A DNA stretch of 64,000 bases from a virus. Lineage: Duplodnaviria; Heunggongvirae; Uroviricota; Caudoviricetes. Below, piece by piece: positions 1-46,142 of this stretch. The notes below the pieces were generated by a model, which made no database searches, had not been told where the DNA came from, and saw only the letters and a list, made by a program, of their open reading frames with translations. The stretch's first letter is position 1. Every line of letters starts with the position of its first letter. Location of the stretch: IMG/VR virus record IMGVR_UViG_3300037312_000757; one strand, written 5' to 3'. A program made the position numbers and the translations under genes.

Positions 1-135
1 TGTTTCTTTTACTGTTGGATGATTGCGTTCAAGCCAGACTGCTAGTTCTGACTTGGGCTTCTCTTCAGCCACCAATAGCTTTGCGTACTTGCTCATCTTG
101 GGAGGGGGCGGAGTGGCTACCACCCCAATTACTTT

Positions 136-735
136 TCAGTCAGCTACTTGCAGACCGAACATCTTAACGAAGTCTTCCAGGCCCTTCTCAAAGCCTTCAC
201 CGACCGTCTTGAACGTCCAGTGACCATCGTTGTTACGCTTGATCTCGGCGAATGCGACCGCCGTTGCACGACCACCGTCTTCTTCGAGGTCAAAGCGGGC
301 GAGCTCTTCGCCACCCTTGTCCATGTCCATCAAGCGAATATAAGCGCCATCAACTTGACCGAACGTTTGCTTGCGTGCCACTGCGTCATAGATCGTGACG
401 ACGAAAGCAATTTCCTTAGCATTCTCAGGCAGTGCCGACAGACTCGGAATAACGATTGTTTCGAGGTCAGTTGCAACAGCACCACCAATCTTCTGGTCGC
501 CGCTATGCTTGATGACACCACCCGGGCAGCTTTGCTGGTGATAGAAGGCAACCCATTCTTCGCCAATCGACATTTCATCCGCGCCCAGCACGAATGCCGT
601 CAAGTCCAGGTCGAAGTCGGCTTGTGTGTCGTACTTCTTACCCTTCCAGCCAATAGCCACTGCAATATTGTTAAGCAGAGAGCCGTCCTCTTTGCGAAGC
701 TTGAGGCCTTCGCCCTTCTTGAGATTCAATGCCAT
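136..735 (-). CDS. terD: TerD-domain stress / tellurite-resistance family protein
   Basis: 199-aa ORF with near full-length TerD / general-stress-protein-16U pattern (MA.SL.KG...GW......D.DLD.S.F..G.......F..Q..FG.V.GAYIRL). ATG at 733-735. Confidence 0.85.
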   Translation of the reverse strand: MALNLKKGEGLKLRKEDGSLLNNIAVAIGWKGKKYDTQADFDLDLTAFVLGADEMSIGEEWVAFYHQQSCPGGVIKHSGDQKIGGAVATDLETIVIPSLSALPENAKEIAFVVTIYDAVARKQTFGQVDGAYIRLMDMDKGGEELARFDLEEDGGRATAVAFAEIKRNNDGHWTFKTVGEGFEKGLEDFVKMFGLQVAD

Positions 736-813
736 TTTATTCTTCTTTTGTTTTTGTTAGGCGGGGAATTACACCCCGCCGTTATTCTACAACTCTACTT
801 GCCAGTTGCAACC

Positions 814-1878
814 TTAGTTGGCAACTTGCTCCGTCTTGGCTTCAGCAATAGCATCAGCCTTGTTCGCACGAATTGAATGATAACCAGCAGCAACGATCAG
901 CACCGCACCGATCAGACCAGTGAACCATTCCGGCACTTCGTACGCAGTATTCACGAACATAATCGCAGCCAGGACACCAATAGCCCAGAACGCACCGTGT
1001 TCGAGATAACGCAACGTGTTCAGCACGCCACCTTCCGTCAAGTAGATTGTGAGGCTTCGTACAAACAGCGCACCAATACCCAGACCAGCAGCGATCACGA
1101 TAAAGTTATTCGACAGTGCAAACGCACCAATCACACCGTCAAAGCTGAACGACGCGTCGACAACTTCAATGTGAACTAGTGCCGCAATACCAGCCGATGC
1201 AGCAACACCAGTCGCAACGCCGCTTGCCATAGCCGCTTCATTTTGACCTTCCATCAGCTTCTTGATACCACCAACGAGTACGTTAGCAATGATACCAACC
1301 ATCGAAGCAATCACGAATTCGAATTTGTGATCGGCCGGAACGATCAGCGAGAACAGAGCAACCACGATCAGCGTAAATGCAACTTGCGCCATTTCGATCT
1401 TGCCGAGTGCAGCCAGCTTCGTTTCGATAAAGCCGACCCAGTGTTCGTCCTTTTCTTCGTCGATGAATTGCTCAGCGAACAGCATCATCAGGAACGCACC
1501 ACCAAATCCTGCGATTGTGATGTGTGCCGATTGTACGTGCGCAGCATATTCAGCTGGCTTTGCGATTGCGAGATGCAATGCTTCCAGCGGCGAGATCCAC
1601 GCAGTGACGCTGACGATCAAGATCGGGAACAGCAAACGCATAAACGCGACAGCGATCACCATACCCCAGACGAGGAACCACTTGCGTTGTTTCTCGTTCA
1701 TGTTTTCCAGCAGCGTTGCGTTGACTACCGCATTGTCAAACGACACACTGATTTCCAGGATGGCAAGAACGGTTGTTGCGACGAGACCACCTTCGATGCC
1801 GTAGAAAAACGCCATCAACGCGATGATGATCGGGGCGAGAAAAAGTTCCGCCTTAAAATACTTCCAAATCGTATTCAT
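814..1878 (-). CDS. TerC-family / DUF475-type integral membrane protein
   Basis: 354 aa with multiple TM helices and paired motifs (EISVSFDNAVVNA ; VDASFSFDGVIGAFAL) typical of TerC/DUF475 proteins. Adjacent to terD. Confidence 0.7.
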   Translation of the reverse strand: MNTIWKYFKAELFLAPIIIALMAFFYGIEGGLVATTVLAILEISVSFDNAVVNATLLENMNEKQRKWFLVWGMVIAVAFMRLLFPILIVSVTAWISPLEALHLAIAKPAEYAAHVQSAHITIAGFGGAFLMMLFAEQFIDEEKDEHWVGFIETKLAALGKIEMAQVAFTLIVVALFSLIVPADHKFEFVIASMVGIIANVLVGGIKKLMEGQNEAAMASGVATGVAASAGIAALVHIEVVDASFSFDGVIGAFALSNNFIVIAAGLGIGALFVRSLTIYLTEGGVLNTLRYLEHGAFWAIGVLAAIMFVNTAYEVPEWFTGLIGAVLIVAAGYHSIRANKADAIAEAKTEQVAN

Positions 1879-1896
1879 GATTTTTGATTTTTGAGA

Positions 1897-2619
1897 TTAG
1901 GCCGAAGCCGGGGCGAACTGCTTGATCCACGTGCAGAACTCTTCGTTCAGCAGCAATGCATAAAGCTGGTCGTCAGTCATGTTGTGAATGTCGGACAAAG
2001 CCGCAAACCCAACATTTGGTTCCGACTCTGCGAGATTCTGCAGGGTTTGGAAACGTTCACTACCAATGCCAAGGAACATCCAGTAAATGTTCTTGTCACG
2101 GGTGCTTGCGATCAGTTGCGCAGTGCGCTCAACGTCGCTATAGTCGTTTTCGCCGTCAGTGTTGAACATGACGAACATAGGCAGATTCGGATCAGTTGCG
2201 GCAACTTCTTTCTTGCCAAACAGTCGGCCAAGCAAACCTGGCTTGCTGCCACCATCCGGGTGATCGTATGCGTTGATCACGGCTTCGATCGCGCGTGAGT
2301 AAACAGTACCGCCACCGTGGAAGTGCGGAATGAGTTCCTTCTGAACATACGTGCCAAATGTGTCTGGCGTTGCATCAGCGAGCTTCTTAGCTGATGTGTT
2401 GAAGATGAACTGCTCGAGGCTTTGGTTGTCGTCGAAACGCACGGCAACAGCCAACGAACGGTCGACGGTTTCTTGCATCACACCGCTTTGATAAAGACCG
2501 CTCATGGAACCTGAGCCATCATTTACCATCACTACGCGTGCGATGAGGTTTTCTGGGACGTTGAACTTCTTGAGGCGGAGACCTACCAGTTCGGTCTTCT
2601 TCTGTAATGAAAGAGCCAC
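1897..2619 (-). CDS. von Willebrand factor A (vWA) domain protein, TerY-like
   Basis: 240 aa with MIDAS motif DGSGSM and later TDGE. GTG start preceded by AAGGA. Third gene of the ter-like cluster. Confidence 0.65.
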   Translation of the reverse strand: MALSLQKKTELVGLRLKKFNVPENLIARVVMVNDGSGSMSGLYQSGVMQETVDRSLAVAVRFDDNQSLEQFIFNTSAKKLADATPDTFGTYVQKELIPHFHGGGTVYSRAIEAVINAYDHPDGGSKPGLLGRLFGKKEVAATDPNLPMFVMFNTDGENDYSDVERTAQLIASTRDKNIYWMFLGIGSERFQTLQNLAESEPNVGFAALSDIHNMTDDQLYALLLNEEFCTWIKQFAPASA

Positions 2620-2695
2620 TTTTGTTTTTCCTTATTGTAGCAGCATGCTACGAGTTAATGCCAAACCGTAGTGTACAACAGTTTGGCAACCTTGC

Positions 2696-2878
2696 TTACG
2701 AAGCTGGTTTGAACTTGATACGAACTGGCTCTTCGTCTACGGAGAGACGATAGATGCGGGGCTCATGCCCTTGATTGACTAGATGATTAGCATATGACTG
2801 CGCATCTTCTTCATTTGCTCGATAACGCATGTTACCGATATTGAGGGCACCGCGATAGATTGACGTAACGAAATACAT
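2696..2878 (-). CDS. hypothetical small protein
   Basis: 60-aa ORF with no clear RBS. Upstream perfect palindrome GCCATATGTTatgAACATATGGC. Confidence 0.35.
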   Translation of the reverse strand: MYFVTSIYRGALNIGNMRYRANEEDAQSYANHLVNQGHEPRIYRLSVDEEPVRIKFKPAS

Positions 2879-2946
2879 TTGAATTGCCAGTTACGAAGAA
2901 AGCCATATGTTATGAACATATGGCAATCTTGTAAATGCAGAACTGG

Positions 2947-3264
2947 CTAAGCTGGTGGAAGCAGATGCTTGAAGTGAACGTAGTTGTCGATCACCCAATC
3001 ACGAGGCGAAACAAATTTGCCGCCTGTTGCGCTGCCGTTACGAACTTGATTGCTGTACGGCGGGATCTTCAGCAACAGATACATGGCCGCACCGTGGACG
3101 TATGGTACACCTGCATCTTCCCAAGCGTCCTTGTACTGTTCGACCTTGTCGCCATCGCAGGAGATTGCGCCCTGCACAGAATACAGATGTGTGGGGATCT
3201 CGAGGTTAGAGAAGAACGTGCCAAGATGTTCGTCCAGCCACTTGTAATGGTTGATATAAGCCAT
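2947..3264 (-). CDS. hypothetical protein
   Basis: 105 aa. RBS GGAAGTGGTG. TAATG overlap with the upstream gene. The plus-strand ORF 2935..3291 is an antisense shadow. Confidence 0.55.
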   Translation of the reverse strand: MAYINHYKWLDEHLGTFFSNLEIPTHLYSVQGAISCDGDKVEQYKDAWEDAGVPYVHGAAMYLLLKIPPYSNQVRNGSATGGKFVSPRDWVIDNYVHFKHLLPPA

Positions 3265-3551
3265 TACACCACTTCCAGTTCGTATGCTTGACCAAACGAG
3301 TGGTGATCATCGAACAGCTCTTCTTCGCAGCTCACGTGCGGACTGTTGAACTCCACGCTCAGCGATTCCCAGTCACGAGCACGCAAACCAACGGAACGCG
3401 TCCAGTTGACCTTGATTGTGGTTGATGTCGCCGGGTTATTGAACCGCATCGTCAGCTCGTCCACCTGCATGTCGTTGACAATCATGCGGATCATGTTGTA
3501 GAACTTCTGCGCTTCTTGCTTGGACAGGATGCGACCAACTTTCGTGTACAT
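3264..3551 (-). CDS. hypothetical protein
   Basis: Track ORF 3264..3593 trimmed to Met15 (MYTKVG) just downstream of AGGAGG. The first 14 codons are the translated promoter/leader repeat. Confidence 0.55.
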   Translation of the reverse strand: MYTKVGRILSKQEAQKFYNMIRMIVNDMQVDELTMRFNNPATSTTIKVNWTRSVGLRARDWESLSVEFNSPHVSCEEELFDDHHSFGQAYELEVV

Positions 3552-3605
3552 ACGCCCTCCTATTTGTTCACCATATAAACATGGTACGTTCATATGGTGA
3601 ACGAG

Positions 3606-4514
3606 TCAAGCGAGGCTGTCTTTATCAAGACAACCGAACATGCGGAGTGAAGCTTGGCGCATACGCTCACCCAGTACACGGTCATTGAACTTGTAAACGT
3701 TTATACGCATACGGCCGTAGGCGAACGGACCATCATCACCCACCAACAAGTCGACTTCACCTGTCTCTAGAGCTGCTACAGCGTCGTCAACGTCCCAGGA
3801 ATACGTGACCGATCGTTCTTGCTGGAACGGTATACTCTGTAGATGGCCGAGGTCAATGAAGAATTGTGCTTCATCCTTCAAACTCAGAAAGAACGTGGGT
3901 TCACCGTTGAAGTATCGATATACGTTGCCACGTTCGACGACTTCGAGCATGTTTTCACGCACGTATGTTGTACCACCTTCAACTTGGCGGTACTTGTTCA
4001 CACATTGTACACGATACGTGGTGATACGGTCGGAGCTGACATCGTCGTATTCAATGCTTTGCACAATGCCATATTCAAATTCACTGCGTCCACGGAAAGT
4101 GAACTTGATGAAGTCTCGTTCCCAAGCACGCGTAACAGGGAGATCAGCGATGAACGTTCGATTCTCGAGACGGTCGTCTACCACGTCGTGCCCTTCCGTG
4201 TTGCGTTCAGCGCGTGCATCGGAGAGTCGCCGATTGTATTCAGCCTTGTCAGTCATCGAGACTTTCCACATGTTGGGACTCGATGTGGTGCCGTCTTCCC
4301 ATTCGACGATAGCACCTCGGTCGATCTCGTAGATCCCAGGCTTTCGGGCCGAATAGCTGCCAATACGTGGTGAATAATGCAGAACGCGGTTCTTGCCGAC
4401 AATCACACCCTTCGTTCGATCCTTTACGGGGTCGCCTTTTTGCGCGTAATAGTCTTCACCACGATTGAAGATGACTTCGTCACCAACACGCATCACATTT
4501 TCAGTAAACGACAT
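3606..4514 (-). CDS. hypothetical protein (302 aa)
   Basis: Long ORF. RBS GGAGGTG before ATG. No recognised domain. Confidence 0.65.
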   Translation of the reverse strand: MSFTENVMRVGDEVIFNRGEDYYAQKGDPVKDRTKGVIVGKNRVLHYSPRIGSYSARKPGIYEIDRGAIVEWEDGTTSSPNMWKVSMTDKAEYNRRLSDARAERNTEGHDVVDDRLENRTFIADLPVTRAWERDFIKFTFRGRSEFEYGIVQSIEYDDVSSDRITTYRVQCVNKYRQVEGGTTYVRENMLEVVERGNVYRYFNGEPTFFLSLKDEAQFFIDLGHLQSIPFQQERSVTYSWDVDDAVAALETGEVDLLVGDDGPFAYGRMRINVYKFNDRVLGERMRQASLRMFGCLDKDSLA

Positions 4515-4515
4515 T

Positions 4516-4707
4516 TCACCTCCTGAAAGATTGACCGGCTTCGCGCAGCTTGACTTGATCGATGATAGCCGAAAGCTTGAAACCTTCTTCCATCACACGT
4601 CGTGTTTGCTCGTCGTCACGCATCAACCAGATTATGGTTGCGAAAGCCCCTCCTATCTCGATGATGCTGGCACCACCGAGAATGACGGGGAAGAGTAGGC
4701 TATTCAT
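4516..4707 (-). CDS. small membrane protein
   Basis: Start moved to MNSLLFPVILGG (hydrophobic helix) to avoid an ~70-nt overlap with the upstream gene. Weak RBS. Confidence 0.4.
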   Translation of the reverse strand: MNSLLFPVILGGASIIEIGGAFATIIWLMRDDEQTRRVMEEGFKLSAIIDQVKLREAGQSFRR

Positions 4708-4987
4708 AGCTGTATTCGGCCGGATCGACGAAACCAGCTGCGGCAACGAATAGATCATCAGCTTTGGCAAGGCTTTCGATGTGATCTTCCATTTCCAACC
4801 ATTCGAGCATACTCACGCCATCATGCTTGTCCATGGCGTCAATAGCGTGGCCACCGTTGAGGCGGGCGTCGATCTCTGCGCACACAACTTCATACATCGG
4901 ATGCATTTCGTTGGCCTCGATCTTGGCCAGCTCCAGGTCAGTCATCTTCTTGACCGACGTCAGTTGCTGGTAATCGAAATCGACCAT
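4700..4987 (-). CDS. hypothetical acidic protein
   Basis: Trimmed to Met17 (MVDFDYQQ) after GGAGAG. Promoter repeat upstream. Confidence 0.55.
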   Translation of the reverse strand: MVDFDYQQLTSVKKMTDLELAKIEANEMHPMYEVVCAEIDARLNGGHAIDAMDKHDGVSMLEWLEMEDHIESLAKADDLFVAAAGFVDPAEYSYE

Positions 4988-5055
4988 TTCTACTCTCCTT
5001 GAATGTTGTTCGCCACACGCAAATGGTAAGTTCATATGAGGGTGGCGTCAAGCGC

Positions 5056-5364
5056 TCACAGTTGAGTCTTCATCTTTCGCATCATCTGCGCAACGGAAAT
5101 GCATCCAGCTTCGCGCCCGCGTTGATCCACAATTGACATTCTGGCACGATCACCGCGCATTCCCGTACCGAATTCACGACCTCGTTCGGTTGCTTGCTTT
5201 GCAAGTTCCTCCAGAAGAAAGCCGGTAAACTTGCGCAGTTCATCCGTAACCATGATACGTTCACGGACACCCTGCGCCTCACCGTTTGCGTCGATGATGC
5301 CATCGGAGACATCGAAACCTGCTTGGCGGGCCAGTGCGAAAATGTCGATCTTCGTTGCCATCAT
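5056..5364 (-). CDS. hypothetical protein
   Basis: 102 aa. RBS GGAGAAC. Promoter repeat at 5370-5415. Confidence 0.55.
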   Translation of the reverse strand: MMATKIDIFALARQAGFDVSDGIIDANGEAQGVRERIMVTDELRKFTGFLLEELAKQATERGREFGTGMRGDRARMSIVDQRGREAGCISVAQMMRKMKTQL

Positions 5365-5415
5365 GTTCTCCTGTTCATTACCATATTCAAATAGTAAGTT
5401 CAGGTGAACATAACG

Positions 5416-6282
5416 TCAAGTGCCTGAAACAGCAGCGTAGAGGATTTCGATGCAGACGTCTTCAGTTTCGAAGTCAACGTCACGCTCTGGGTTGTATTCA
5501 ACCAACTCAAAACCGACTAACTTGGTTTTGTCCATGACTTCGAATGCCGTAACAACTTCCCACGCATCAAGCCCATTTTCTTCTGGAGAACCAACGCCAG
5601 GAGCTTGCTTCGGGTCAATCGAATCAACATCAAACGTGATACCAAATCCGATTGTGTTCTTTGTAACGATTTCTATTGCCTCGCCCAAGCAATAGAGAAA
5701 ACCTTTCTGTTGTACTTCTTCGATACGCATGACGCGAACACCCATGCTGGCAAGCAATTGTTCCTCGCCTGCTTCGCTGCTACGGGCGCCGATCACCACA
5801 ACGTTTTCTGGCTTGAACTTGGGCAGCGCATCAGCAATGCTAGTCAACTTATCATTGCCCTTACCTAGCAAGTGAGCCAAGGGCATACCATGAGGCGCAC
5901 CACTTTCTGATGTTTCAGGTGTATGGCTGTCCAAGTGTGCATCGATCCAAATCAGGCCGATGTCACCACGATCACGGTAGGTTTTCGCTATCGCACTCCA
6001 GGTACCAATAGCACAAGAATGATCGCCGCCGATCACGACAGGGAATACTTCCCGCTTCATCACTGCATCAACTGCTGATGCCAAGCGTGGCATGTAATCT
6101 TCGACAATAGCCATCTTGGATCCGAGCGACGCATCTGACGTGACCGTTTGGCCTAAGGCGATTGTAAGTTTGTGGGATTGAAGATCTTGAAGACGTTGCT
6201 GCAATGCAGCCGGGCCAGCTTTGCACTGGACAATTCGGGCACCTTCGCCAATCTCGGCGAAGACTACTTCGATATGAGACAT
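5416..6282 (-). CDS. arginase/agmatinase/formiminoglutamase-family ureohydrolase
   Basis: Ureohydrolase signature motifs GGDHS, DAHLD and FDVDSIDP present. Start set at MSHIEVV (GGGAG 5 nt upstream). Confidence 0.8.
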   Translation of the reverse strand: MSHIEVVFAEIGEGARIVQCKAGPAALQQRLQDLQSHKLTIALGQTVTSDASLGSKMAIVEDYMPRLASAVDAVMKREVFPVVIGGDHSCAIGTWSAIAKTYRDRGDIGLIWIDAHLDSHTPETSESGAPHGMPLAHLLGKGNDKLTSIADALPKFKPENVVVIGARSSEAGEEQLLASMGVRVMRIEEVQQKGFLYCLGEAIEIVTKNTIGFGITFDVDSIDPKQAPGVGSPEENGLDAWEVVTAFEVMDKTKLVGFELVEYNPERDVDFETEDVCIEILYAAVSGT

Positions 6283-6308
6283 TAGAACTCCCAGACGATG
6301 TATGGCAA

Positions 6309-6350
6309 TTGGCACGGACTCAAGTATAACAGTCCGTGCCAATTTTTTGT
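6309..6350 (+). terminator. hairpin plus T-run oriented on the plus strand in a minus-strand block
   Basis: TTGGCACGGACTcaagtataacAGTCCGTGCCAA plus TTTTTTG. No plus-strand gene upstream. May block antisense read-through or act bidirectionally. Confidence 0.4.
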
Positions 6351-6359
6351 TTGCCTTAT

Positions 6360-6818
6360 TTAGTTCACCTGGGGTTCATGCCCAACATGAAGGAATGTGA
6401 ACGGGACGATAATACTACGCATGCGCTTGTGTCCCCAGTACATGAACAGCATCTTCTTGCCGACTTCGTCAACAACAAAGTCGAACAGTTCGCGTTTGTT
6501 GATCTCGCGCATGTTTTGCGTCGACTCGACGGTGAACAACATGCGTTGATAACCAACTTCGTGGGTGTCTTCGTAGCGGAATGCGTTTACGCGGAACTGA
6601 ATAAAGTATTCGTTGATCAGCTTGCGTGACGACAGGTCGAAGACACGACTGTCATGTAGGCTGAACTCCGTGCCACCCAGCACGTTTTCAGTGTAATGTC
6701 GTAGGCTGGCGGTAGCAGCCCAGAACGCTTTGTATTCAGCGTTGACGTCCCCGGTATACTTCGGATCATTGAGCTTACGGTGAAGCTCTGCCGACGTCCG
6801 GGCGTATTGTTCGAGCAT
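6360..6818 (-). CDS. hypothetical protein
   Basis: 152-aa ORF. No recognised motif (not ThyX: no RHRxxS). Confidence 0.6.
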   Translation of the reverse strand: MLEQYARTSAELHRKLNDPKYTGDVNAEYKAFWAATASLRHYTENVLGGTEFSLHDSRVFDLSSRKLINEYFIQFRVNAFRYEDTHEVGYQRMLFTVESTQNMREINKRELFDFVVDEVGKKMLFMYWGHKRMRSIIVPFTFLHVGHEPQVN

Positions 6819-6827
6819 GCTTTCCCC

Positions 6828-7064
6828 TTACAGTGAAGAGATCACCATCAAAATGTCGTAGCCTGCATCACGACGACCTTGTTTCATAGCACCTTTCTGG
6901 CCCCACGGATCTTGACCCTGGTACCTTGGGTCGCTGTCATCGCGGGTGATGTCGAATGCTTTGCCCAGAAGCAATGTTGAGAAAAGTTTCAATTGTGCTT
7001 CGGCAAGCTCACTGTCTATCACCAAGTTTGCTTGGGCGGCAAGGGCCTTGAGGTCGATTTTCAT
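6828..7064 (-). CDS. hypothetical protein
   Basis: 78 aa. RBS GGAGAA. ATGA overlap with the upstream gene. Confidence 0.55.
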   Translation of the reverse strand: MKIDLKALAAQANLVIDSELAEAQLKLFSTLLLGKAFDITRDDSDPRYQGQDPWGQKGAMKQGRRDAGYDILMVISSL

Positions 7065-7258
7065 CAGTTCTCCTTGACTTTGCGGGTCCGAACTACTGCG
7101 CAGTGAAAGCCGGCCGTTTTTCTGTAACCATGTTGCTGGTTATAGCAATCAGCAAAGGCTTCGGCTTTTGCTTTGTCGTCAAACGTATCGAGAAGGGCAT
7201 AGTCAGGGCCGCCGATACGGTCGCCTTTCACTTTGTGATACACGTAGAACGTGGCCAT
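7064..7258 (-). CDS. hypothetical protein
   Basis: Trimmed to Met10 (MATFYVYH) after CAGGAGAAAG. Promoter repeat upstream. Confidence 0.55.
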   Translation of the reverse strand: MATFYVYHKVKGDRIGGPDYALLDTFDDKAKAEAFADCYNQQHGYRKTAGFHCAVVRTRKVKEN

Positions 7259-7332
7259 TTTTGCTTTCTCCTGTTCATCTACCATGCAAGCATGGTACTT
7301 TCATATGGCAACGAGTCAAGTACCAAATGATG

Positions 7333-7354
7333 AAAAGTCCCAAAGGAGACTTTT
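7333..7354 (-). terminator. intrinsic terminator
   Basis: Minus strand: AAAAGTCtcctttggGACTTTT plus TCATCATTT, after the stop at 7380. Confidence 0.55.
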
Positions 7355-7379
7355 CAATTGTAACGCCTGCTTCGTCAGA

Positions 7380-7733
7380 TTACTTTAAGAGAGCAGCCAC
7401 GATCGAACGAACTGTTGCACTGCTGACGCCATTTGCTTGCGCGATCTCGTAAGCAGTCTTATCGTCTATGGCTAGAACTGCTCGACCCGCTGCAAATGCA
7501 CGCTGAAGGCCAGCGAGGTCGAATGATGCACCGTGAGCCTGTTTCACATTGAGACCATACTCGTCAACTAACCAGCCCTCGAACGTAACCGCATTGGCGC
7601 ATTGAGCTTCTTGTTTGATGCGTCCCGTACCTTCGCAAACGAAACACTCTTGATCGGTACCAATATCAGGATCACGAACCATTCGTCCCGTACCGTTACA
7701 AGCAGAGCACACTTCACCAGTGTTTGCAGTCAT
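7380..7733 (-). CDS. DnaJ-type zinc-finger (2x CxxCxGxG) plus C-terminal HTH protein, putative regulator
   Basis: CSACNGTG and CFVCEGTG repeats. C-terminal helix-turn-helix-like TAYEIAQANGVSSATVRSIV. Start at MTANTG after CAGGAGAAC. Confidence 0.55.
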   Translation of the reverse strand: MTANTGEVCSACNGTGRMVRDPDIGTDQECFVCEGTGRIKQEAQCANAVTFEGWLVDEYGLNVKQAHGASFDLAGLQRAFAAGRAVLAIDDKTAYEIAQANGVSSATVRSIVAALLK

Positions 7734-7814
7734 ATTGTTCTCCTGAATGATTACCATGCCTCGCATTGTATATTCATTTGGCTAGACGTCAAGCTTTTTC
7801 ATGAATGAAAAAGC

Positions 7815-7839
7815 AAGAGCGGCCAAAACGGCCGCTCTT
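7815..7839 (-). terminator. intrinsic terminator
   Basis: GC-rich stem AAGAGCGGCC/GGCCGCTCTT followed by T5 on the minus strand, after the SBP gene. Confidence 0.6.
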
Positions 7840-7861
7840 GGATCACTACGTTCTAAAGGTC

Positions 7862-8791
7862 TTACTTCAGGTCATAGTAGGACCAAAGACCTTTGTTTCC
7901 AGCCTGCACAACTTGCCATTTCGGGTGCGTGCCGGTCGTGTCCTTCAGGTCCGGGAGTGCTTGCGCTTCGCATGCACGCAGACGTTTCAGTTGATCGATC
8001 TTCTGTGCGCTGTTGTACACACGCGACACGAGCAGAGCTTCAGTTGCGACCGTTTCGACACCGCGTTGGCCGAGGTTGCCATAGCTGACACGCGCGGGCT
8101 TGTACACTTTCGACAATGCTGCCGCTTGTTGCGGCGTCACCGTGAGCAGCTTGAAACGATTGTCGAGGCTTGCGACCGTCGAGAGCGGGGCGCCGCCGAC
8201 TGCTACGAACGCGTCGATCTTGCCGGCTTGCAGCGCTTGCGAAGCTTCGTCGTTGCTGTTGAACGTGATGATGTTGTAGTTGATCTTGGCGAGTGCCTTG
8301 ACCACTTCGGCAGTCAGCGCTGAGCCGCCCACCGCGCCAATGTTGCGGCCGTTCAGATCACCGATGTTGTTGAACACGACTTGCTTGCCGCCGATCGAGA
8401 AGCCACCGAGGCTCATGCCGCCTTCATGCACGCCGTCAGCTCGAGCGACGAAGTGAACTTCTTCGGGGAAAAGTGCCACGACAGTTCGCACGTTGTTCAG
8501 GTCGTCTTCGCTGCGTGCGCGCCAGAACAGTGCGTCGGTCTGCACGATGGCAGCGTTCACCTTGTTCTGCTCCAGCATGTCGAGGTTCGCGTTTGAGCCG
8601 TTCGACGGCACTTCTTGCAGTTGCACGCTACCGCAGCGCGATTGCAGTTCCTTGAACATGCGGCTGTAGGTCAGCTTCTGGTCACCCGTTGCAACCACCA
8701 GCGACTGTGCTTGAGCCACACCCGAGATCGCGACGATCATTGCCAGGCCCACCGATACACGCGTGATGAAACGTTTCATATTCATGTTCAC
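7862..8791 (-). CDS. periplasmic solute-binding protein, TAXI-family TRAP receptor-like
   Basis: Signal peptide (MKRFITRVSVGLAMIVAISGVAQA). ATGD..LTY...VQ.DAL pattern like TAXI/NMT1-type solute-binding proteins. GC-rich relative to neighbours. Confidence 0.6.
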   Translation of the reverse strand: MNMNMKRFITRVSVGLAMIVAISGVAQAQSLVVATGDQKLTYSRMFKELQSRCGSVQLQEVPSNGSNANLDMLEQNKVNAAIVQTDALFWRARSEDDLNNVRTVVALFPEEVHFVARADGVHEGGMSLGGFSIGGKQVVFNNIGDLNGRNIGAVGGSALTAEVVKALAKINYNIITFNSNDEASQALQAGKIDAFVAVGGAPLSTVASLDNRFKLLTVTPQQAAALSKVYKPARVSYGNLGQRGVETVATEALLVSRVYNSAQKIDQLKRLRACEAQALPDLKDTTGTHPKWQVVQAGNKGLWSYYDLK

Positions 8792-12069: not shown

Positions 12070-12738
12070 TTACTTCAGAAGTGGTAAGAGCTTTTGAATT
12101 GCGGTGCTGATACGCGCCAACGTACCGAGTGGGGCCACTGCTTCGTATAATGCATCAAACGTTGTATTGGGTGCCGTGATGTTGAAAAGCTGGTAGACCT
12201 CGGATTTTACATCGTCGCGCTTTTCTTGCAATTCCGCACGTCGTTCAGCGGTCAGCTTTTCCCGCTCTTCCCTGCGAGTACGCTCTTCTTCTATACGGCT
12301 TGCGACAACCCGCAGTTCGTAGTCACGCAGTTCGACCATCAACAACCTGAGGGCTTCGTCGAATGTTCGTTCACCGTTGACGAAGTAATATTGTGCAAGT
12401 GTACGCCGATCATATGGCGCATAGATCTTCTCAGACACATATCCGTATTTGATGAGTCTGATTTCGAGCCGATCGCCATTTACATATGGAAGGACTTCCA
12501 TTTTAACACGTCGGCCAGCTTCGGTTTCTGCAAAATATGAAAAATGAACGATCGGATACTTGTCATTGTCCGAATCTTTGCCATTGACAATTGGGATGAA
12601 TCGACCGTTTGGATATTCTTCTGCAAACTTGCGATAGACCGCTTTCACGTCACCCCGAGTTCCAACATTCATGGTGTTGAAGAGATCAGGATAAGTGAGA
12701 ATCAGCTTGACGAATGATTGTTCGGCCTTGCTCGTCAT
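12070..12738 (-). CDS. hypothetical protein, paralog family D (coiled-coil C-terminus)
   Basis: 222 aa. MTSKAEQSFVKLILTYPDLFN ... IQKLLPLLK. Confidence 0.6.
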   Translation of the reverse strand: MTSKAEQSFVKLILTYPDLFNTMNVGTRGDVKAVYRKFAEEYPNGRFIPIVNGKDSDNDKYPIVHFSYFAETEAGRRVKMEVLPYVNGDRLEIRLIKYGYVSEKIYAPYDRRTLAQYYFVNGERTFDEALRLLMVELRDYELRVVASRIEEERTRREEREKLTAERRAELQEKRDDVKSEVYQLFNITAPNTTFDALYEAVAPLGTLARISTAIQKLLPLLK

Positions 12739-13406
12739 GCCGCAATTCCTTGTGCGTTGATACTGCGGTAAATTCGCATCTGAGTCGTCAACATGAATTT
12801 GATGTTCTCGTAGACTGGTTCTTGCTCAGGAAAGTTGCGCCGTGCAAGCTTCAGGAATGTGAAGAAGTGTTCTTCCGTTTCGTCGCAGTATTTCACCTGT
12901 TTCTCTAGCGTGAACACACCAGCCATGGTTCGCATGTTGTGGACACGATCACTGCCCTTCACCACAGACACGCGGTAATTATCGGACAGTGGGCCAAAAT
13001 ACGCGTCAGGTGTTTTCTTCTCACCACGGTATTCTTTAGCCAGCAGTCTACAGTCAGTAGCAACGATTTCATCAGTCACTTCACCAATTTCTTCGAAGCT
13101 GATCTGATCGCCGTAGTCTTCACCCAGGTCGTGCAGTAGGGCATCAGCAATGGTGCGAGGAGCGTCTGTCAGCAGCTTCTCCATGGTCAGGAGATACAAC
13201 GCGATTTCAATCTGGTGTTGGAACTCGGGCGTCTTGCCGTCCTTGCGGAAACCTGTGTGATACTTCAGACCGAGATCAAGAGCACGAACAGCAATGAACC
13301 AAGCAGGATCGAGTGATGCACGCCCCATCAGCTGATAACGAAGAGCCATCTTGAGCTTTTCGTAGTGCAGGATTTCGGGGGTTACGATCTTCTGCTCGCT
13401 TGCCAT
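12735..13406 (-). CDS. HD-domain phosphohydrolase, RelA/SpoT-like (p)ppGpp-hydrolase-like
   Basis: HQIEIALYLL ... ALLHDLGEDY matches the H..HD..ED signature of SpoT/Mesh1 hydrolase domains. Start at MASEQK (GGAG 9 nt upstream). Confidence 0.6.
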   Translation of the reverse strand: MASEQKIVTPEILHYEKLKMALRYQLMGRASLDPAWFIAVRALDLGLKYHTGFRKDGKTPEFQHQIEIALYLLTMEKLLTDAPRTIADALLHDLGEDYGDQISFEEIGEVTDEIVATDCRLLAKEYRGEKKTPDAYFGPLSDNYRVSVVKGSDRVHNMRTMAGVFTLEKQVKYCDETEEHFFTFLKLARRNFPEQEPVYENIKFMLTTQMRIYRSINAQGIAA

Positions 13407-13452
13407 AGCAGGCTCCAAGGTTAGATTAGGTATGGCTGATGATAGCTTCGCG

Positions 13453-15132: not shown

Positions 15133-15153
15133 AATAGGCTCCAATGAAAAATG

Positions 15154-15170
15154 CCAGTCTAACAGACTGG
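15154..15170 (-). terminator. intrinsic terminator
   Basis: CCAGTCTgttAGACTGG plus CATTTTTC on the minus strand. Confidence 0.5.
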
Positions 15171-15197
15171 CAACCTTCTGCAACCTAATGTGGCAAC

Positions 15198-20416: not shown

Positions 20417-20439
20417 TATTATAACCGTGCAAAGAAAAA

Positions 20440-20458
20440 GCCAGTCTACATGACTGGC
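20440..20458. terminator. bidirectional intrinsic terminator
   Basis: GCCAGTCtacatGACTGGC flanked by an A5 run and TTTTATTTTG. Confidence 0.6.
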
Positions 20459-20489
20459 TTTTATTTTGTGTAAATGTGATGCTTACTTA

Positions 20490-21417: not shown

Positions 21418-21495
21418 CGTGCCCCCGTAAAAGAAAAAGCCATTCTAACTGAATGGCTTTCATTCTGCGTGCAAAATTGGCTAAATTAGCTTCTT

Positions 21496-21950: not shown

Positions 21951-21981
21951 GGAAAAGCCATTCAAATTGAATGGCTTTTCC
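21951..21981 (-). terminator. intrinsic terminator
   Basis: GGAAAAGCCATTCaaattGAATGGCTTTTCC. Confidence 0.55.
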
Positions 21982-22405: not shown

Positions 22406-22482
22406 CTGGTCTCGGGTGTGGGATTCGAACTCACGTCACCTGGTCCCAAACCAGGCACACTAACCAGGCTGTGCTAACCCGA
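22406..22482 (-). tRNA. tRNA-Pro (anticodon UGG)
   Basis: Hand-folded cloverleaf: acceptor CTCGGGT/ACCCGAG, D-arm GCAC/GTGT, anticodon stem CCTGG/CCAGG with loop TTTGGGA, T-loop TTCGAAT, encoded CCA. Confidence 0.8.
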
Positions 22483-22611
22483 GATATGTAGTTCCGTGTT
22501 CATGGTTGTATCACAATCGTCTACAGCATACATGAACAGAGTGTCGACCCTCTTGGAACTACGGGGGTGGAAGTTCCGCATCCGCGTAGACTTGGAACTT
22601 CCGATCACTGT

Positions 22612-22623
22612 GGGGGGGGGGGG
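22612..22623. repeat. G12/C12 homopolymer tract inside the tRNA cluster spacer
   Basis: 12 consecutive G on the plus strand between tRNA-Pro and tRNA-Ala, within a highly structured ~165-nt spacer. Confidence 0.7.
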
Positions 22624-22651
22624 CCAGCTTTCGCCAGCGCCCTTAAAATCT

Positions 22652-22727
22652 TGGTGGAGGTAGACGGGATCGAACCGACGACCTTTAGCTTGCAAAGCTA
22701 CTGCTCTCCCAGCTGAGCTATACCCCC
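22652..22727 (-). tRNA. tRNA-Ala (anticodon UGC)
   Basis: GGGGGTATAGCTCAGCTGGGAGAGC... with G3:U70 Ala identity pair, anticodon loop TTTGCAA, T-loop TTCGATC, CCA. Confidence 0.8.
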
Positions 22728-22728
22728 A

Positions 22729-22804
22729 TGGTACATCCTGACGGGATCGAACCGCCGACCTTCGCCTTGTAAGGGCGTTGCTCTACCAGCTGAGCTAAGG
22801 ATGC
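22729..22804 (-). tRNA. tRNA-Val (anticodon UAC)
   Basis: GCATCCTTAGCTCAGCTGGTAGAGC..., anticodon loop CTTACAA, T-loop TTCGATC, CCA. Only 1 nt from tRNA-Ala. Confidence 0.75.
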
Positions 22805-31546: not shown

Positions 31547-32371
31547 TTACTTCTTGGCTACATCAATTACCTTTGCCACCCCGCCAATGTTATCGGCTTG
31601 TGTTTGGGCCGCGTTGGCGTTGCGCCACGCGATCACTTGTTCGGGCGTGAGATGCGCAGCATCAGCAGCGGCTCGAAGTGCTTCTGCGTCAATTGACGCT
31701 TTCTGCCGAGCAAGTTCCTTGCGTTGTGCAATCAGCGCAAGTTCAGCAGCATTGCTCTCTCGCTCTGCGTTGAACGACGCAACCTTGTTCACCTGTTGCT
31801 GAATAGAATCTGGCAACTTAAAGTGTGTCGTCGTAACGTTCACTGACAAAAACGCATCAGGATAACGTTGATCCAGCAATCGTTTGAATTCAGCTGATGC
31901 TTTCTCGTCATACGCTTGTGTATTTTTGGCAATAGCAACCGGATTGTCAGTTTCAGTTACCGTTTGCATCACACCAGGTGCCCACTGTTTGATGGCCTCA
32001 AGCCCGATCGTTGTATATTCTCGATTGCTACCATCTTTGTATGTGTCAAGTTCATGTGTGGTAGAATAGAACTGTGATACATGCTGTGGATTGAGCGTAT
32101 AAGTGACAATGATATCAAGATCATCCACAGGCACGCCATCAGCATCTTTTGGTGTCAGGTTATTTACCACTACCCTTGTGGGTGTGGTGTCGACTTCGGC
32201 GAGGATCGAATCGAAGAACATCCAGTGAAATCCAGGTGTAGCGACCTCAGGGTCGATCTTGCCACCCCAATGCTTGACGATGCCAATATTACCTGATTCA
32301 ATCCGCGAGCATCCACTCATCGCAAGAATGATGGTTGCAAGCGCAGCAAAAAGTGCTAGAGTGCGTTTCAT
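31547..32371 (-). CDS. SPFH/band-7 (prohibitin/HflKC-like) lipoprotein
   Basis: Start at MKRTLALFAALATIILAMSGC (lipobox) after ACGGAGGT. GIVKHWGGKIDPEVATPGFHW... SPFH-type core plus an Ala/Glu coiled-coil tail. Confidence 0.55.
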   Translation of the reverse strand: MKRTLALFAALATIILAMSGCSRIESGNIGIVKHWGGKIDPEVATPGFHWMFFDSILAEVDTTPTRVVVNNLTPKDADGVPVDDLDIIVTYTLNPQHVSQFYSTTHELDTYKDGSNREYTTIGLEAIKQWAPGVMQTVTETDNPVAIAKNTQAYDEKASAEFKRLLDQRYPDAFLSVNVTTTHFKLPDSIQQQVNKVASFNAERESNAAELALIAQRKELARQKASIDAEALRAAADAAHLTPEQVIAWRNANAAQTQADNIGGVAKVIDVAKK

Positions 32372-32420
32372 TATACCTCCGTAGATTGTTTGGTGCGCCA
32401 TTATATATGAATGGCAAATG

Positions 32421-32447
32421 AAAAGCGGGAGTATTGCTCCCGCTTTT
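32421..32447. terminator. bidirectional intrinsic terminator
   Basis: AAAAGCGGGAGtattgCTCCCGCTTTT. Confidence 0.6.
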
Positions 32448-32459
32448 GCCACTTACCGC

Positions 32460-35460: not shown

Positions 35461-35480
35461 CTGGCAACCTTAGTTGCCAG
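35461..35480. promoter_or_regulatory. CTGGCAAC-ctta-GTTGCCAG perfect palindrome
   Basis: Same 8-mer half-sites as at 13453. Near-copy at 802-828 and single half-sites at 9880-9950, 15170-15200, 15920-15940, 36550-36560, 58845-58915 and 59560-59600. Confidence 0.45.
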
Positions 35481-35487
35481 TTGTGGC

Positions 35488-35847
35488 TTAGTGACGCGTG
35501 TTCAGCTTACCCTTCGACATGTCGGAGTAGAAGTGCTTCGTCACGTCGGCCACGAGATTCGGGCACAGCGTCATTTGCATCGCCGGCGAAGCAACCGGGG
35601 TGTACACATCACCACCATCCGTGCGGCCACCGATCTTTTCTGCCCACTTTTCCATCACGGCGCCCAGCTCGCTCAGGAAGCGCGTCTTGAACTTCAGCTT
35701 GCCGTTACGCCGACCCCAGAAGTTGACCAGCTTGCCGTCGATCTTCGCGATGCCCCAGATTTTGTCATTAGAAGCAGCACCGCCTGCGTTGCCACGTGCG
35801 CCTTCGTTGTAGAAGTGACCAAACTTGAGGATTTCGACGTTTGCCAT
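35488..35847 (-). CDS. paralog family B protein (GRRxGKLxFKT core)
   Basis: Start MANVEIL. Shares M.VEI...GH...G.RG..GG.SKD.V.G.A......GRRGG.L.FKT with 39657 and 45470 genes. Conserved 5'-UTR hairpin upstream. Confidence 0.6.
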   Translation of the reverse strand: MANVEILKFGHFYNEGARGNAGGAASNDKIWGIAKIDGKLVNFWGRRNGKLKFKTRFLSELGAVMEKWAEKIGGRTDGGDVYTPVASPAMQMTLCPNLVADVTKHFYSDMSKGKLNTRH

Positions 35848-35880
35848 GTTCATTTCTCCTTAAAGTTGTTGCAGCGTTTT

Positions 35881-35899
35881 GTTTGCTGCGTTGCGTCTA
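35881..35899 (-). promoter_or_regulatory. conserved 5'-UTR hairpin of paralog family B mRNAs
   Basis: GCAGCgttttgtttGCTGC between the promoter repeat and the RBS. Equivalents at 40083-40097 and 46014-46034. Confidence 0.4.
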
Positions 35900-35958
35900 C
35901 CATGTATCACATTCTACATTCATTTGGTAGGCAGTCAACAACTAAATGAACATTTTTG

Positions 35959-36186
35959 TCATTCTTTTTGCGCCAGCTTTACTTGCTGTTTGTAGCGTTC
36001 CTCCCACGCTGCCATCGGCCATGCTACCGACAGCAAGCAAATCAAGCAGAAGCCCTGGAACACACGAACGCCGCTGTCGCCGACGTACCATGAGCCCCCA
36101 ACGCCCCAGATCATTTGGCTGACGCCACACAGCATCGCAATCCACGACGTTGCGATAACAACTCCCAGCAAGATTTTGAGCTTCAT
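35959..36186 (-). CDS. small membrane protein
   Basis: 75 aa with two TM helices. RBS GGGGAA. Confidence 0.5.
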   Translation of the reverse strand: MKLKILLGVVIATSWIAMLCGVSQMIWGVGGSWYVGDSGVRVFQGFCLICLLSVAWPMAAWEERYKQQVKLAQKE

Positions 36187-45976: not shown

Positions 45977-46142
45977 GTTCATTTCTCCTTAAAGTTGTTT
46001 ACCAGTTTTGTTTGCAGCGCTTTGTCTTCGCTGCGTCGTCTACCATGTCGCTATATTATGTTCATCTGAAACTTGAATCAACAGCTAAATGAACAAATTT
46101 TCAACTTTTTTCATCTGTTGTGGCAACACAACATGGTTCAAA

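What the first reader, a model, noticed from the sequence alone, without database searches (positions are those of the whole stretch)
136..2619. Ter-type stress cluster (TerD – TerC/DUF475 – vWA) carried by a phage
Three consecutive co-oriented genes encode a TerD-domain protein (strong match), a DUF475/TerC-type polytopic membrane protein and a vWA/MIDAS protein. This is the typical composition of bacterial ter/tellurite-resistance loci, which have also been linked to phage resistance and membrane stress. In a phage it could be superinfection exclusion, envelope-stress management during infection, or counter-defence. The cluster has no promoter repeat and is flanked by the CAACTAAGGTTGC palindrome class, so its regulation may differ from the early genes.
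Basis: partly seen in the sequence, partly recalled or inferred. Interest (0 to 1): 0.55.

Follow-up and report, generated by a model that had tools for sequence, protein, structure and literature searches.

The report
Abbreviated Ter stress cassette in jumbo phage
A very large phage carries a five-gene version of the bacterial "tellurite-resistance" (Ter) membrane-stress module; phages are already known to carry such modules, their role in infection has never been tested, and the only new detail here is a hidden fifth gene related to TelA.

Summary
Three adjacent minus-strand genes encode a vWA-TerF-like protein (1897-2619), a DUF475/TerC-superfamily membrane protein (814-1878) and a TerD protein (136-735), all with strong Pfam matches. 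The window edge cuts the cluster. An identical overlapping contig shows it continues with a 260-aa helical protein, whose first 32 codons are at window 96-1, and then a canonical TelA. Profile-profile comparison shows the 260-aa protein is a very divergent, shortened TelA homologue. The same five-gene block recurs in two related metagenomic contigs. The core order vWA-DUF475-TerD, usually with TelA, recurs in Rhizobium, Caulobacter and Ralstonia jumbo phages and in 24 of 56 IMG/VR viral contigs that carry DUF475. "Abbreviated Ter operons" (TerD, TerC, TerF, TelA) in jumbo phages are already published (Iyer et al. 2021), with function unknown. This is therefore a new member of a known kind. The most likely role is an early-expressed, divalent-cation-dependent inner-membrane protection or superinfection-exclusion module. 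That role is inferred, not shown. On regulation, the cluster itself has no promoter repeat, but it lies in a roughly 7.8-kb promoter-free unit headed by a standard repeat at 3614-3551.

The parts
1897..2619 (-). vWA-TerF-like gene (240 aa, GTG start, AAGGA Shine-Dalgarno 9 nt upstream). MIDAS motif is intact: D34-x-S36-x-S38, T105, D155.
   Evidence: Pfam PF10138 E 1.1e-37. PHROG 5359 E 5.6e-57. MIDAS residues are invariant in 5 phage homologues. No solved-structure relative by sequence.
814..1878 (-). DUF475 / TerC-superfamily polytopic inner-membrane protein (354 aa, about 8-9 hydrophobic segments). It has two internal repeat motifs, E42-x-S-x-S-F-D48-N-A and D241-A-S-F-S-F-D247-G.
   Evidence: Pfam PF04332 E 5.3e-95 and TerC PF03741 E 3.2e-19. 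NCBIfam PRK14013 models up to 2.9e-115, below their equivalog cut-offs. Hydropathy analysis. Acidic residues invariant in 13 homologues.
136..735 (-). TerD-domain protein (199 aa). The DxD motif is kept. The acidic Ca-binding loop is degenerate: GDQKIGGAVATDLE versus canonical GDNRTGEGDGDDE.
   Evidence: Pfam PF02342 E 4.6e-49. PDB 2KXT E 2.2e-37. Loop comparison.
1..96 (-). 5' end (32 codons) of the 260-aa 'X260' gene, a divergent, shortened TelA homologue. The rest of this gene and the canonical TelA gene (373 aa) lie beyond the window start, at L004:4311-5093 and L004:5090-6211.
   Evidence: L004 is identical to the window over 4406 nt. Gene calls. TelA PF05816 E 5.7e-44. X260 versus TelA by hhalign: 97.9% probability, E 5e-13, 198 columns, with a reversed control at 2.3%. 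AF2 model is all-helical, pLDDT 78. BFVD hits are phage TelA and post-TerD proteins of Caulobacter phages.
760..780 (-). GC-rich hairpin GGCGGGG-N7-CCCCGCC between DUF475 and TerD. No U-tract follows it on the sense strand.
   Evidence: Fold of 736-830 gives dG -29.2 kcal/mol, z -3.5.
808..820 (-). Exact CAACTAAGGTTGC motif spanning the DUF475 stop codon. It forms part of a small hairpin.
   Evidence: 2 exact copies in the window: 808-820 and 35464-35476.
2659..2688 (-). 10-bp hairpin (GCCAAACUGU...ACGGUUUGGC) in the leader upstream of vWA. It overlaps a -10-like box (TACACT/TACCAT/TATCAT) conserved in the two related contigs.
   Evidence: z -3.6; alignment of the three upstream regions.
2902..2924 (-). 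Terminator-like hairpin GCCATATGTT-CAT-AACATATGGC followed by UUUCUUCG. It overlaps a weak sigma70-like match at 2935-2907.
   Evidence: fold z -5.7.
3551..3614 (-). Nearest upstream copy of the window-wide promoter repeat (TTGACT-17-TACCAT + palindrome + AGGAGG + ATG at 3551). It is the probable start of the unit that contains the Ter genes.
   Evidence: nhmmer E 9.9e-15. No further copy until L004:8657, about 7.8 kb downstream. Same layout in L008 and L009.

Best explanation
This is an abbreviated Ter (tellurite-resistance-type) membrane-stress cassette carried by a jumbo phage. In full it is five co-transcribed genes: vWA(TerF-type), DUF475(TerC superfamily), TerD, a short divergent TelA paralogue, and TelA.

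Proposed mechanism (inferred):
- DUF475 is an inner-membrane divalent-cation (Mn2+/Ca2+-type) transporter, like characterised TerC proteins.
- TerD is a soluble cation-binding sensor or adaptor that docks to it.
- The MIDAS-containing vWA protein and the two helical TelA-type proteins assemble a metal-dependent layer under the membrane.

The cassette lies in a long unit headed by a host-type (sigma70-like) promoter repeat, so early expression is plausible. The module would then stabilise or seal the infected cell's inner membrane against secondary insults. These include DNA injection by superinfecting phages, colicin/tailocin-type pore formers, and oxidant or xenobiotic stress. It would therefore act mainly as a superinfection-exclusion or host-envelope-maintenance device during a long infection cycle.

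Shown here: gene identities, intact motifs, and conserved synteny across many phages. Inferred: the transported ion, the protein-protein interactions, the timing, and the phenotype.
For: Identity of the parts:
- Pfam, PHROG and PDB matches.
- Intact MIDAS motif in the vWA protein.
- Invariant paired acidic motifs in DUF475.

The genes behave as a functional unit:
- The same block vWA-DUF475-TerD-X-TelA occurs in L008 and L009 at 37-75% protein identity, while the upstream small genes are not conserved.
- TelA-vWA-DUF475-TerD occurs in Rhizobium RHph_Y65, Caulobacter CcrBL9 and Ralstonia RsoM2USA.
- 51 of 56 IMG/VR contigs with DUF475 have another Ter gene within 5 kb, and 24 have vWA>DUF475>TerD in that order.

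X260 is TelA-like:
- hhalign 97.9% probability, E 5e-13, against 2.3% for a reversed control.
- The position immediately after TerD is shared with X-like ORFs in L040, L067, L044, L045, and the CcrPW and CcrColossus contigs.
- BFVD fold hits.

Expression:
- A standard promoter repeat lies at 3614-3551, and no further copy follows for about 7.8 kb.

Function, by analogy:
- TerC proteins export or metalate with Mn (PMC10550928).
- Bacterial and plasmid ter loci give phage inhibition and colicin resistance (Whelan 1995, as cited in PMC9796965, and in the bioRxiv preprint 10.1101/2021.03.02.433402).
- Iyer et al. 2021 propose superinfection competition for jumbo-phage Ter operons (PMC7824862).
Against: - No experiment exists for any phage Ter cassette. 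PMC9796965 states that the functions during infection are unknown.
- PADLOC defence models do not match any of the three proteins.
- DUF475 itself is uncharacterised, and its substrate is guessed from TerC.
- The TerD Ca-binding loop here has lost about half of its acidic residues: 3 D/E against a median of 5. Ca2+ sensing may therefore be altered.
- The components of complete Ter systems thought to generate the signal (PRTase, HAD, TerB) were not seen nearby.
- A terminator-like hairpin at 2924-2902 lies between the promoter repeat and the cluster, so timing is uncertain.
- No structural phage hallmark gene lies in the window itself.
Confidence: 0.45

Rival explanations
1. Host metal homeostasis (auxiliary metabolic function). 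DUF475 exports or delivers Mn2+/Ca2+, as TerC/MeeF/MeeY do, to keep host or phage metallo-enzymes and secretion working during a long latent period. TerD, vWA and TelA act only as regulators, and no competitor is excluded.
For: - TerC-family proteins act in Mn export and metalation (PMC10550928, PMC12096827).
- The paired acidic motifs in DUF475 are intact.
- In bacteria DUF475 often stands alone as a housekeeping-type gene.
- PHROG files the family under 'moron, auxiliary metabolic gene and host takeover'.
Against: - In phages DUF475 is almost never alone: 51 of 56 contigs have TerD, vWA or TelA beside it. This points to a multi-protein membrane device rather than a simple transporter.
- There is no Mn riboswitch or other known RNA element upstream.
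Confidence: 0.25
2. Counter-defence. The sub-membrane TelA/vWA layer and TerD neutralise host abortive-infection effectors that depolarise or perforate the membrane, or delay premature lysis, so that the phage completes its cycle.
For: - TelA-family proteins have been linked to resistance to envelope-acting agents (recalled: Listeria TelA and nisin; not checked here).
- The cassette sits among likely early host-takeover genes behind a host-type promoter.
- Two TelA-type genes are retained.
Against: There is no direct evidence. Bacterial Ter systems are described as acting against phages, not for them. This reading cannot be distinguished from the best explanation by sequence alone.
Confidence: 0.15
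3. Lysogenic or pseudolysogenic conversion. The genes give the carrier cell resistance to tellurite or other xenobiotics, which benefits host and phage during persistence.
For: - Iyer et al. mention xenobiotic resistance during pseudolysogeny as an additional possibility.
- The family names derive from tellurite resistance.
Against: - The set lacks TerB, TerA/Z/E and other components. PMC9796965 judges such partial sets unlikely to give tellurium resistance.
- No integrase or repressor was seen near the cluster.
- Tellurite is environmentally rare.
Confidence: 0.08
4. Not a phage. The window is a bacterial chromosomal or plasmid island with an ordinary bacterial ter locus.
For: - The source contig is 524 kb.
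- No capsid, terminase or tail gene lies in the 64-kb window.
- The contig was not found in IMG/VR by close match.
- The best named DUF475 relatives are bacterial (Chitinimonas, about 50% identity).
Against: - About 37 near-identical promoter repeats drive roughly 100 short co-oriented ORFs that mostly lack Pfam families.
- The window carries 3 tRNAs and several PHROG-only families.
- The best homologues of a 309-aa protein are in Ralstonia and Achromobacter jumbo phages.
- A tail-protein-like PHROG hit lies on the adjoining contig.
- The gene order vWA-DUF475-TerD is the phage-typical one, unlike the Chitinimonas locus, which lacks vWA.
Confidence: 0.05

Closest known systems
Abbreviated Ter operons (TerD, TerC, TerF-vWA, TelA) of jumbo phages, e.g. 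Caulobacter phages CcrBL9/CcrColossus, Rhizobium RHph_Y65, Ralstonia RsoM2USA (Iyer et al. 2021, PMC7824862)
   Same: - Same four families.
- The DUF475 form of TerC.
- The same consecutive order vWA>DUF475>TerD.
- An X-like helical gene directly after TerD in the Caulobacter phages.

   Different: - Here TelA lies downstream of TerD and X instead of upstream of vWA. This order is shared with only 4 of 56 IMG/VR contigs plus L008 and L009.
- Protein identities to isolated phages are only 27-45%.
- The TerD acidic loop is degenerate.
Pseudomonas phage phiPsa374-type and Klebsiella phiKp34-type ter gene sets (terC, terD, terF, telA)
   Same: A partial ter set in virulent phages, with function during infection unknown.
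   Different: In those phages the genes are interspersed with other ORFs and the TerD genes are more distant (24-26% identity). In FKP3 (Justusliebigvirus) DUF475 is separated from TelA by about 3.6 kb.
Bacterial/plasmid terZABCDEF and telAB/klaABC loci (e.g. IncHI2 R478)
   Same: Shares TerD, a TerC-superfamily membrane protein, the TerF-type vWA domain and TelA. The phenotypes reported for these loci (phage inhibition, colicin and tellurite resistance) are the basis of the functional inference.
   Different: - No TerB, TerA/Z/E paralogue array or linked biosynthetic module here.
- The membrane protein is DUF475, not canonical TerC.
- The vWA is a stand-alone protein rather than fused to a TerD domain as in TerF.
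Chitinimonas arctica chromosomal locus TelA-TelA-DUF475-TerD-TerD-TerD (CP041730)
   Same: It has the closest named DUF475 (50% identity), tandem TelA paralogues and an adjacent TerD.
   Different: It has no vWA gene and three TerD copies, and it is chromosomal.
TerC-family Mn exporters/metallochaperones MeeF, MeeY, Alx
   Same: Same superfamily fold signature: paired re-entrant motifs with conserved acidic residues.
   Different: It belongs to a different family (DUF475), has no yybP-ykoY riboswitch, and its substrate is untested.

Membership tests
Ter stress-response system (Anantharaman, Iyer & Aravind 2012 sense) | TerD-domain protein | tested here: met
   PF02342 E 4.6e-49, full-length; 2KXT E 2.2e-37.
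Ter stress-response system (Anantharaman, Iyer & Aravind 2012 sense) | TerC-type integral membrane protein adjacent to TerD | tested here: met
   DUF475 PF04332 E 5.3e-95, with TerC PF03741 at 69.8 bits (cut-off 27.8). It lies 79 nt upstream of terD. It is the DUF475 branch, not canonical TerC.
Ter stress-response system (Anantharaman, Iyer & Aravind 2012 sense) | TerF/TerY-type vWA domain with MIDAS | tested here: met
   PF10138 E 1.1e-37; DxSxS, T and D are invariant.
Ter stress-response system (Anantharaman, Iyer & Aravind 2012 sense) | TelA | tested here: met
   PF05816 E 5.7e-44 on L004:5090-6211, about 0.9 kb beyond the window start on the same strand.
Complete Ter system (terZABCDEF plus biosynthetic module) | TerB, multiple TerD paralogues (TerA/Z/E), and PRTase/HAD/ATP-grasp genes | tested here: not met
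   No such Pfam families appear among the neighbours scanned in the window and in L004, nor in the precomputed Pfam for L004, L008 and L009. The rest of the 524-kb genome was not available.
Complete Ter system (terZABCDEF plus biosynthetic module) | Phenotypes: tellurite resistance, phage inhibition, colicin resistance | not testable with these tools
   Requires expression experiments.
Jumbo-phage abbreviated Ter operon (Iyer et al. 2021) | TerD + TerC + TerF-vWA + TelA contiguous and co-oriented | tested here: met
   The same arrangement is seen in L002, L003, L010 and in 24 IMG/VR contigs.
Jumbo-phage abbreviated Ter operon (Iyer et al. 2021) | Located on a (jumbo) phage genome | tested here: inconclusive
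   The signature is strongly phage-like: promoter repeats, PHROG-only families, jumbo-phage homologues and a 523,837-bp contig. No virion or terminase gene was seen in the DNA available.
Pfam TelA (PF05816), tested for the 260-aa protein X260 | Match to the family HMM above the gathering score | tested here: not met
   No TelA hit even at E<=10 for X260 and its relatives. Remote homology only: hhalign 97.9%, E 5e-13.
Known anti-phage defence systems (PADLOC-DB v2) | Match to any defence-protein model | tested here: not met
   0 families for all three proteins at E<=0.01.
Mn-riboswitch (yybP-ykoY)-controlled TerC genes | Riboswitch in the 5' leader | tested here: not met
   Rfam scan of 1-4000 at E<=1 found only two chance-level matches, neither a riboswitch.

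The most novel reading that the evidence does not exclude
Phage Ter cassettes are a distinct, phage-adapted five-component machine, not a leftover of the bacterial system. The components would be a TerF-type vWA, DUF475, TerD, canonical TelA and a previously unrecognised, fast-evolving short TelA paralogue (the X family) that sits directly after TerD in several unrelated jumbo-phage lineages. The X/TelA pair would form a hetero-oligomeric coat under the membrane, with specificity that differs between phages. This would make the cassette a tunable superinfection-exclusion or anti-abortive-infection system.
Probability: 0.25. Interest if true: 0.55.

Novelty: new member of a known kind. Interest (0 to 1): 0.3.

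Why it matters
Ter genes are among the most widespread unexplained stress and defence genes in bacteria, and their mechanism is still unknown decades after their discovery. Phages keep a minimal, tightly syntenic subset: vWA, DUF475, TerD, TelA, plus a TelA-like fifth gene. That subset marks out a likely functional core and gives a compact set of five genes to test by expression and deletion. This particular instance adds one more lineage, a roughly 524-kb phage probably infecting a betaproteobacterium. It also adds the observation that the unannotated gene after TerD is a divergent TelA homologue. It does not change the overall picture.

Tried and rejected
- A megablast of window 1-8000 against 50,697 phage records found no match, so the phage is not close to any isolate.
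- A single-protein scan of IMG/VR with DUF475 found nothing. An alignment was needed.
- The genome-contig scan with the vWA alignment returned only 2 loci. It was too few to judge how common a vWA-containing cassette is in bacteria.
- One exact-protein look-up failed because of start-codon choice. The 524-kb JGI contig itself was never returned as DNA.
- X260 gave no Pfam or PHROG family.
- An exhaustive HMMER search of 1.84 billion representatives found only one new relative.
- Foldseek of the X260 model against PDB gave only generic helical bundles, none at E<=0.001.
- hhalign of the 4-sequence X profile against single Caulobacter and Rhizobium post-TerD proteins was not significant. Deeper alignments were needed.
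- The afdb50 fold library was unavailable.
- No Mn riboswitch or other Rfam element was found.
- Attempts to define a Ter-specific promoter upstream of vWA gave only a conserved -10-like box with no consistent -35, so this remains unresolved.
- The Anantharaman 2012 paper (PMC4104200) is not held. A search for the TerD calcium-site paper gave nothing useful.
Full report
**Observation**

The region holds three adjacent ORFs on the minus strand, transcribed in the order 2619->1897 (240 aa, GTG start), 1878->814 (354 aa) and 735->136 (199 aa). Pfam assigns them as follows:
- vWA-TerF-like: PF10138, E 1.1e-37. Generic VWA scores only 1.8e-4 and falls below its cut-off.
- DUF475: PF04332, E 5.3e-95, with a second significant match to TerC (PF03741, 69.8 bits against a cut-off of 27.8).
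- TerD: PF02342, E 4.6e-49, over the full length.

PHROGs has families for all three. TerD matches the solved Klebsiella TerD structure 2KXT at E 2e-37. Both conditions it named as refuting were tested, and neither refutes it.

**The cluster is cut by the window edge**

An 11.2-kb public contig (L004) encodes the identical DUF475 protein. It is identical to the window over all 4406 overlapping bases and extends 6.8 kb past the window start. After terD come two further genes:
- a 260-aa gene (X260), whose ATG is at window position 96 on the minus strand;
- overlapping X260 by 4 nt, a 373-aa TelA (PF05816, E 5.7e-44; PHROG 'tellurite resistance', 6e-68).

A DUF4326 gene and a small S24-like peptidase gene follow.

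**X260 is a divergent TelA homologue**

X260 has no Pfam or PHROG family. It has almost no relatives even in an exhaustive search of 1.84 billion representatives. Its AlphaFold model is an all-helical bundle with pLDDT 78. In the viral structure library its best matches are uncharacterised Caulobacter-phage proteins and phage TelA or 'tellurite resistance' proteins.

Searches with my own HMMs found weak X-like ORFs in two places:
- in the same position, between TerD and TelA, in L040 and L067;
- directly after TerD in L044, L045, and the CcrPW and CcrColossus contigs.

With these added, a profile-profile comparison of 12 X-like sequences against 32 TelA sequences gives 97.9% probability and E 5e-13 over 198 columns. 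The alignment includes the conserved 'P-x-W' motif. A reversed-TelA control gives 2.3%. X260 is thus a shortened, very divergent TelA homologue. It fails the Pfam TelA membership test, so I call it TelA-like and not TelA.

**Is it a phage?**

No virion gene lies in the DNA I could read, but the evidence is strongly phage-like:
- The window is filled with short co-oriented ORFs.
- It has three tRNAs.
- It has about 37 copies of a 65-nt promoter repeat, all on the minus strand. The repeat is a sigma70-like TTGAC-N17-TACCAT with a palindrome over the -10 region, followed by AGGAG and ATG.
- Several proteins match only PHROG families.
- A 309-aa solute-receptor-like protein has its best relatives in jumbo phages of Ralstonia (RP12, RP31, phiRSL1) and Achromobacter.
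- The source contig is 523,837 bp.

The closest named DUF475 proteins are from the betaproteobacterium Chitinimonas, at about 50% identity. A jumbo or mega-phage of a betaproteobacterium is the likely source.

**Comparative context**

Two related metagenomic contigs (L008, L009) have DUF475 at 75% and 71% identity. Both carry exactly the same block, vWA-DUF475-TerD-X-TelA-DUF4326. The small genes upstream of vWA are not conserved between the three contigs, which marks the block's boundary.

Among isolated phages, TelA-vWA-DUF475-TerD occurs in Rhizobium phage RHph_Y65, Caulobacter phage CcrBL9 and Ralstonia phage RsoM2USA.

A scan of IMG/VR with a DUF475 alignment found 56 viral contigs, many longer than 200 kb. 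Annotating them with my own HMMs gave:
- 51 have another Ter gene within 5 kb;
- 24 have vWA>DUF475>TerD in that consecutive order;
- 19 of those have TelA immediately upstream of the trio;
- 4 have TelA downstream of TerD, as here.

In the three bacterial contexts I could look at, DUF475 is either flanked by TelA-TelA and three TerD genes without vWA (Chitinimonas) or stands alone. Three cases are too few to generalise.

**Sequence features bearing on function**

- The vWA protein keeps a complete MIDAS motif (D34-x-S36-x-S38, T105, D155), invariant in five phage homologues.
- DUF475 has about 8-9 hydrophobic segments. It also has two internally repeated motifs with invariant acidic residues (E42, D48 and D241, D247), as expected for a working TerC/LysE-type cation transporter.
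- TerD keeps the DxD motif, but its acidic loop is degenerate. The canonical GDNRTGEGDGDDE is the Ca2+-binding loop of Klebsiella TerD (recalled from Pan et al. 2011, not re-read). Here it reads GDQKIGGAVATDLE.
- That loop has 3 acidic residues, against a median of 5 and a range of 2-8 in 58 TerDs from the collected loci. It is at the low end but not unique.

**Regulation**

The nearest copy, at 3614-3551, heads a 95-aa gene. On L004 the next copies appear only about 7.8 kb downstream. L008 and L009 show the same layout: a repeat, then two small genes, then the Ter block, and a long stretch with no repeat.

The simplest reading is a long operon driven by a standard repeat. Two observations complicate it:
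- A stable hairpin with a U-rich tail at 2924-2902 (z -5.7) lies between the promoter and vWA.
- The leader upstream of vWA contains a hairpin (2659-2688) and a -10-like box conserved in all three contigs.

A Ter-specific promoter or attenuator therefore cannot be excluded.

The exact CAACTAAGGTTGC motif is inside the cluster at 808-820, over the DUF475 stop codon, with one other exact copy at 35464-35476. A related sequence lies upstream of vWA. A GC-rich hairpin without a U-tract separates DUF475 and terD (760-780). No Rfam family, including Mn riboswitches, matches.

**What is known**

Iyer et al. 2021 (PMC7824862) already report a near-complete Ter system in Acinetobacter phage ME3. [quoted passage not shown] The phiKp34 and phiPsa374 papers describe the same gene set and state that its function during infection is unknown. 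TerC proteins are Mn exporters or metallochaperones (PMC10550928). PADLOC has no model matching these proteins. The finding is therefore a new member of a known kind.

**Mechanism**

I commit to a membrane-protection or superinfection-exclusion module with these parts:
- DUF475 as a cation transporter;
- TerD as a cation-binding adaptor;
- the MIDAS vWA protein and the TelA plus TelA-like pair as a metal-dependent scaffold under the membrane;
- expression possibly early, from a host-type promoter.

Gene identities, motifs and synteny are shown here. Ion specificity, complex formation, timing and phenotype are inferred. My confidence is about 0.95 in the identity of the module and about 0.45 in the mechanism. 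The rivals are pure metal homeostasis (0.25), counter-defence against membrane-acting abortive infection (0.15), xenobiotic resistance during persistence (0.08), and a non-phage origin (0.05).

**Verdict**

The modest additions are three:
- the true extent of the cassette, which is five genes and is cut by the window;
- the recognition that the unannotated gene after TerD is a divergent TelA homologue, conserved in position in several phage lineages;
- a count showing how tightly DUF475 is tied to TerD, vWA and TelA in viral contigs.

Noticed in passing
window 3551-58243 (minus strand), e.g. 3614-3551, 5058-4992, 28858-28794, 42319-42251, 49282-49216: About 37 copies of a 65-nt promoter repeat. 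Its consensus is GCTTGAC-N17-TACCATnTGAACATGGTAAAC, then AGGAG and ATG. It is a sigma70-like promoter with a palindrome over the -10/+1 region, possibly an operator. The same repeat occurs in the related contigs L004, L005, L008 and L009.
   Followed up: partly
window 22407-22804 (minus strand): A cluster of three tRNA genes: Pro-TGG, Ala-TGC and Val-TAC.
   Followed up: no
window 5416-6342 (minus strand): An arginase/agmatinase-family gene (PF00491, E 2.6e-55) in a phage context. It is also present near the Ter block in the related contig L009.
   Followed up: no
window 7862-8791 (minus strand): A TRAP/NMT1-like solute-binding protein. Its best relatives (40-45% identity) are in the Ralstonia jumbo phages RP12, RP31 and phiRSL1 and in Achromobacter phage Motura.
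   Followed up: partly
L004:6261-6823 (just beyond the window start); L008:13834-14483: A DUF4326 gene and a small S24 (LexA/UmuD-like) peptidase-like gene directly follow TelA in this phage and in a relative. They may belong to the same operon.
   Followed up: no
window 31547-32452, 50120-50899, 43169-44404, 12735-13418, 62747-63292: Other accessory genes: an SPFH/Band-7 membrane protein, a radical-SAM protein, a CoaE-like kinase fused to a phosphohydrolase-like region, an HD-domain protein, and a dCMP deaminase on the plus strand.
   Followed up: no
window 15149-15174, 20436-20461, 21435-21460, 21953-21978, 47564-47589: A family of near-identical hairpins (AAAAGCCAnTC-N5-GAnTGGCTTT) that look like a shared intrinsic-terminator type.
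   Followed up: no
window 35677-35976, 39876-40058, 45794-46027: Three copies of repeated segments of about 100-300 nt (61-80% identity), probably paralogous small genes together with their upstream regions.
   Followed up: no
window 35464-35476 (minus strand): The second exact copy of CAACTAAGGTTGC. Here it forms a clean 6-bp hairpin just after a stop codon and is followed by a canonical terminator (GGGGAAC-AAAA-GTTCCCC-TTTT).
   Followed up: partly
window 2696-2878 (minus strand): A 60-aa ORF between the terminator-like hairpin and vWA. It was not called in the public contig. The short ORFs at the same position in L008 and L009 show no convincing similarity to it (14-15% identity), so it may not be a gene.
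   Followed up: partly
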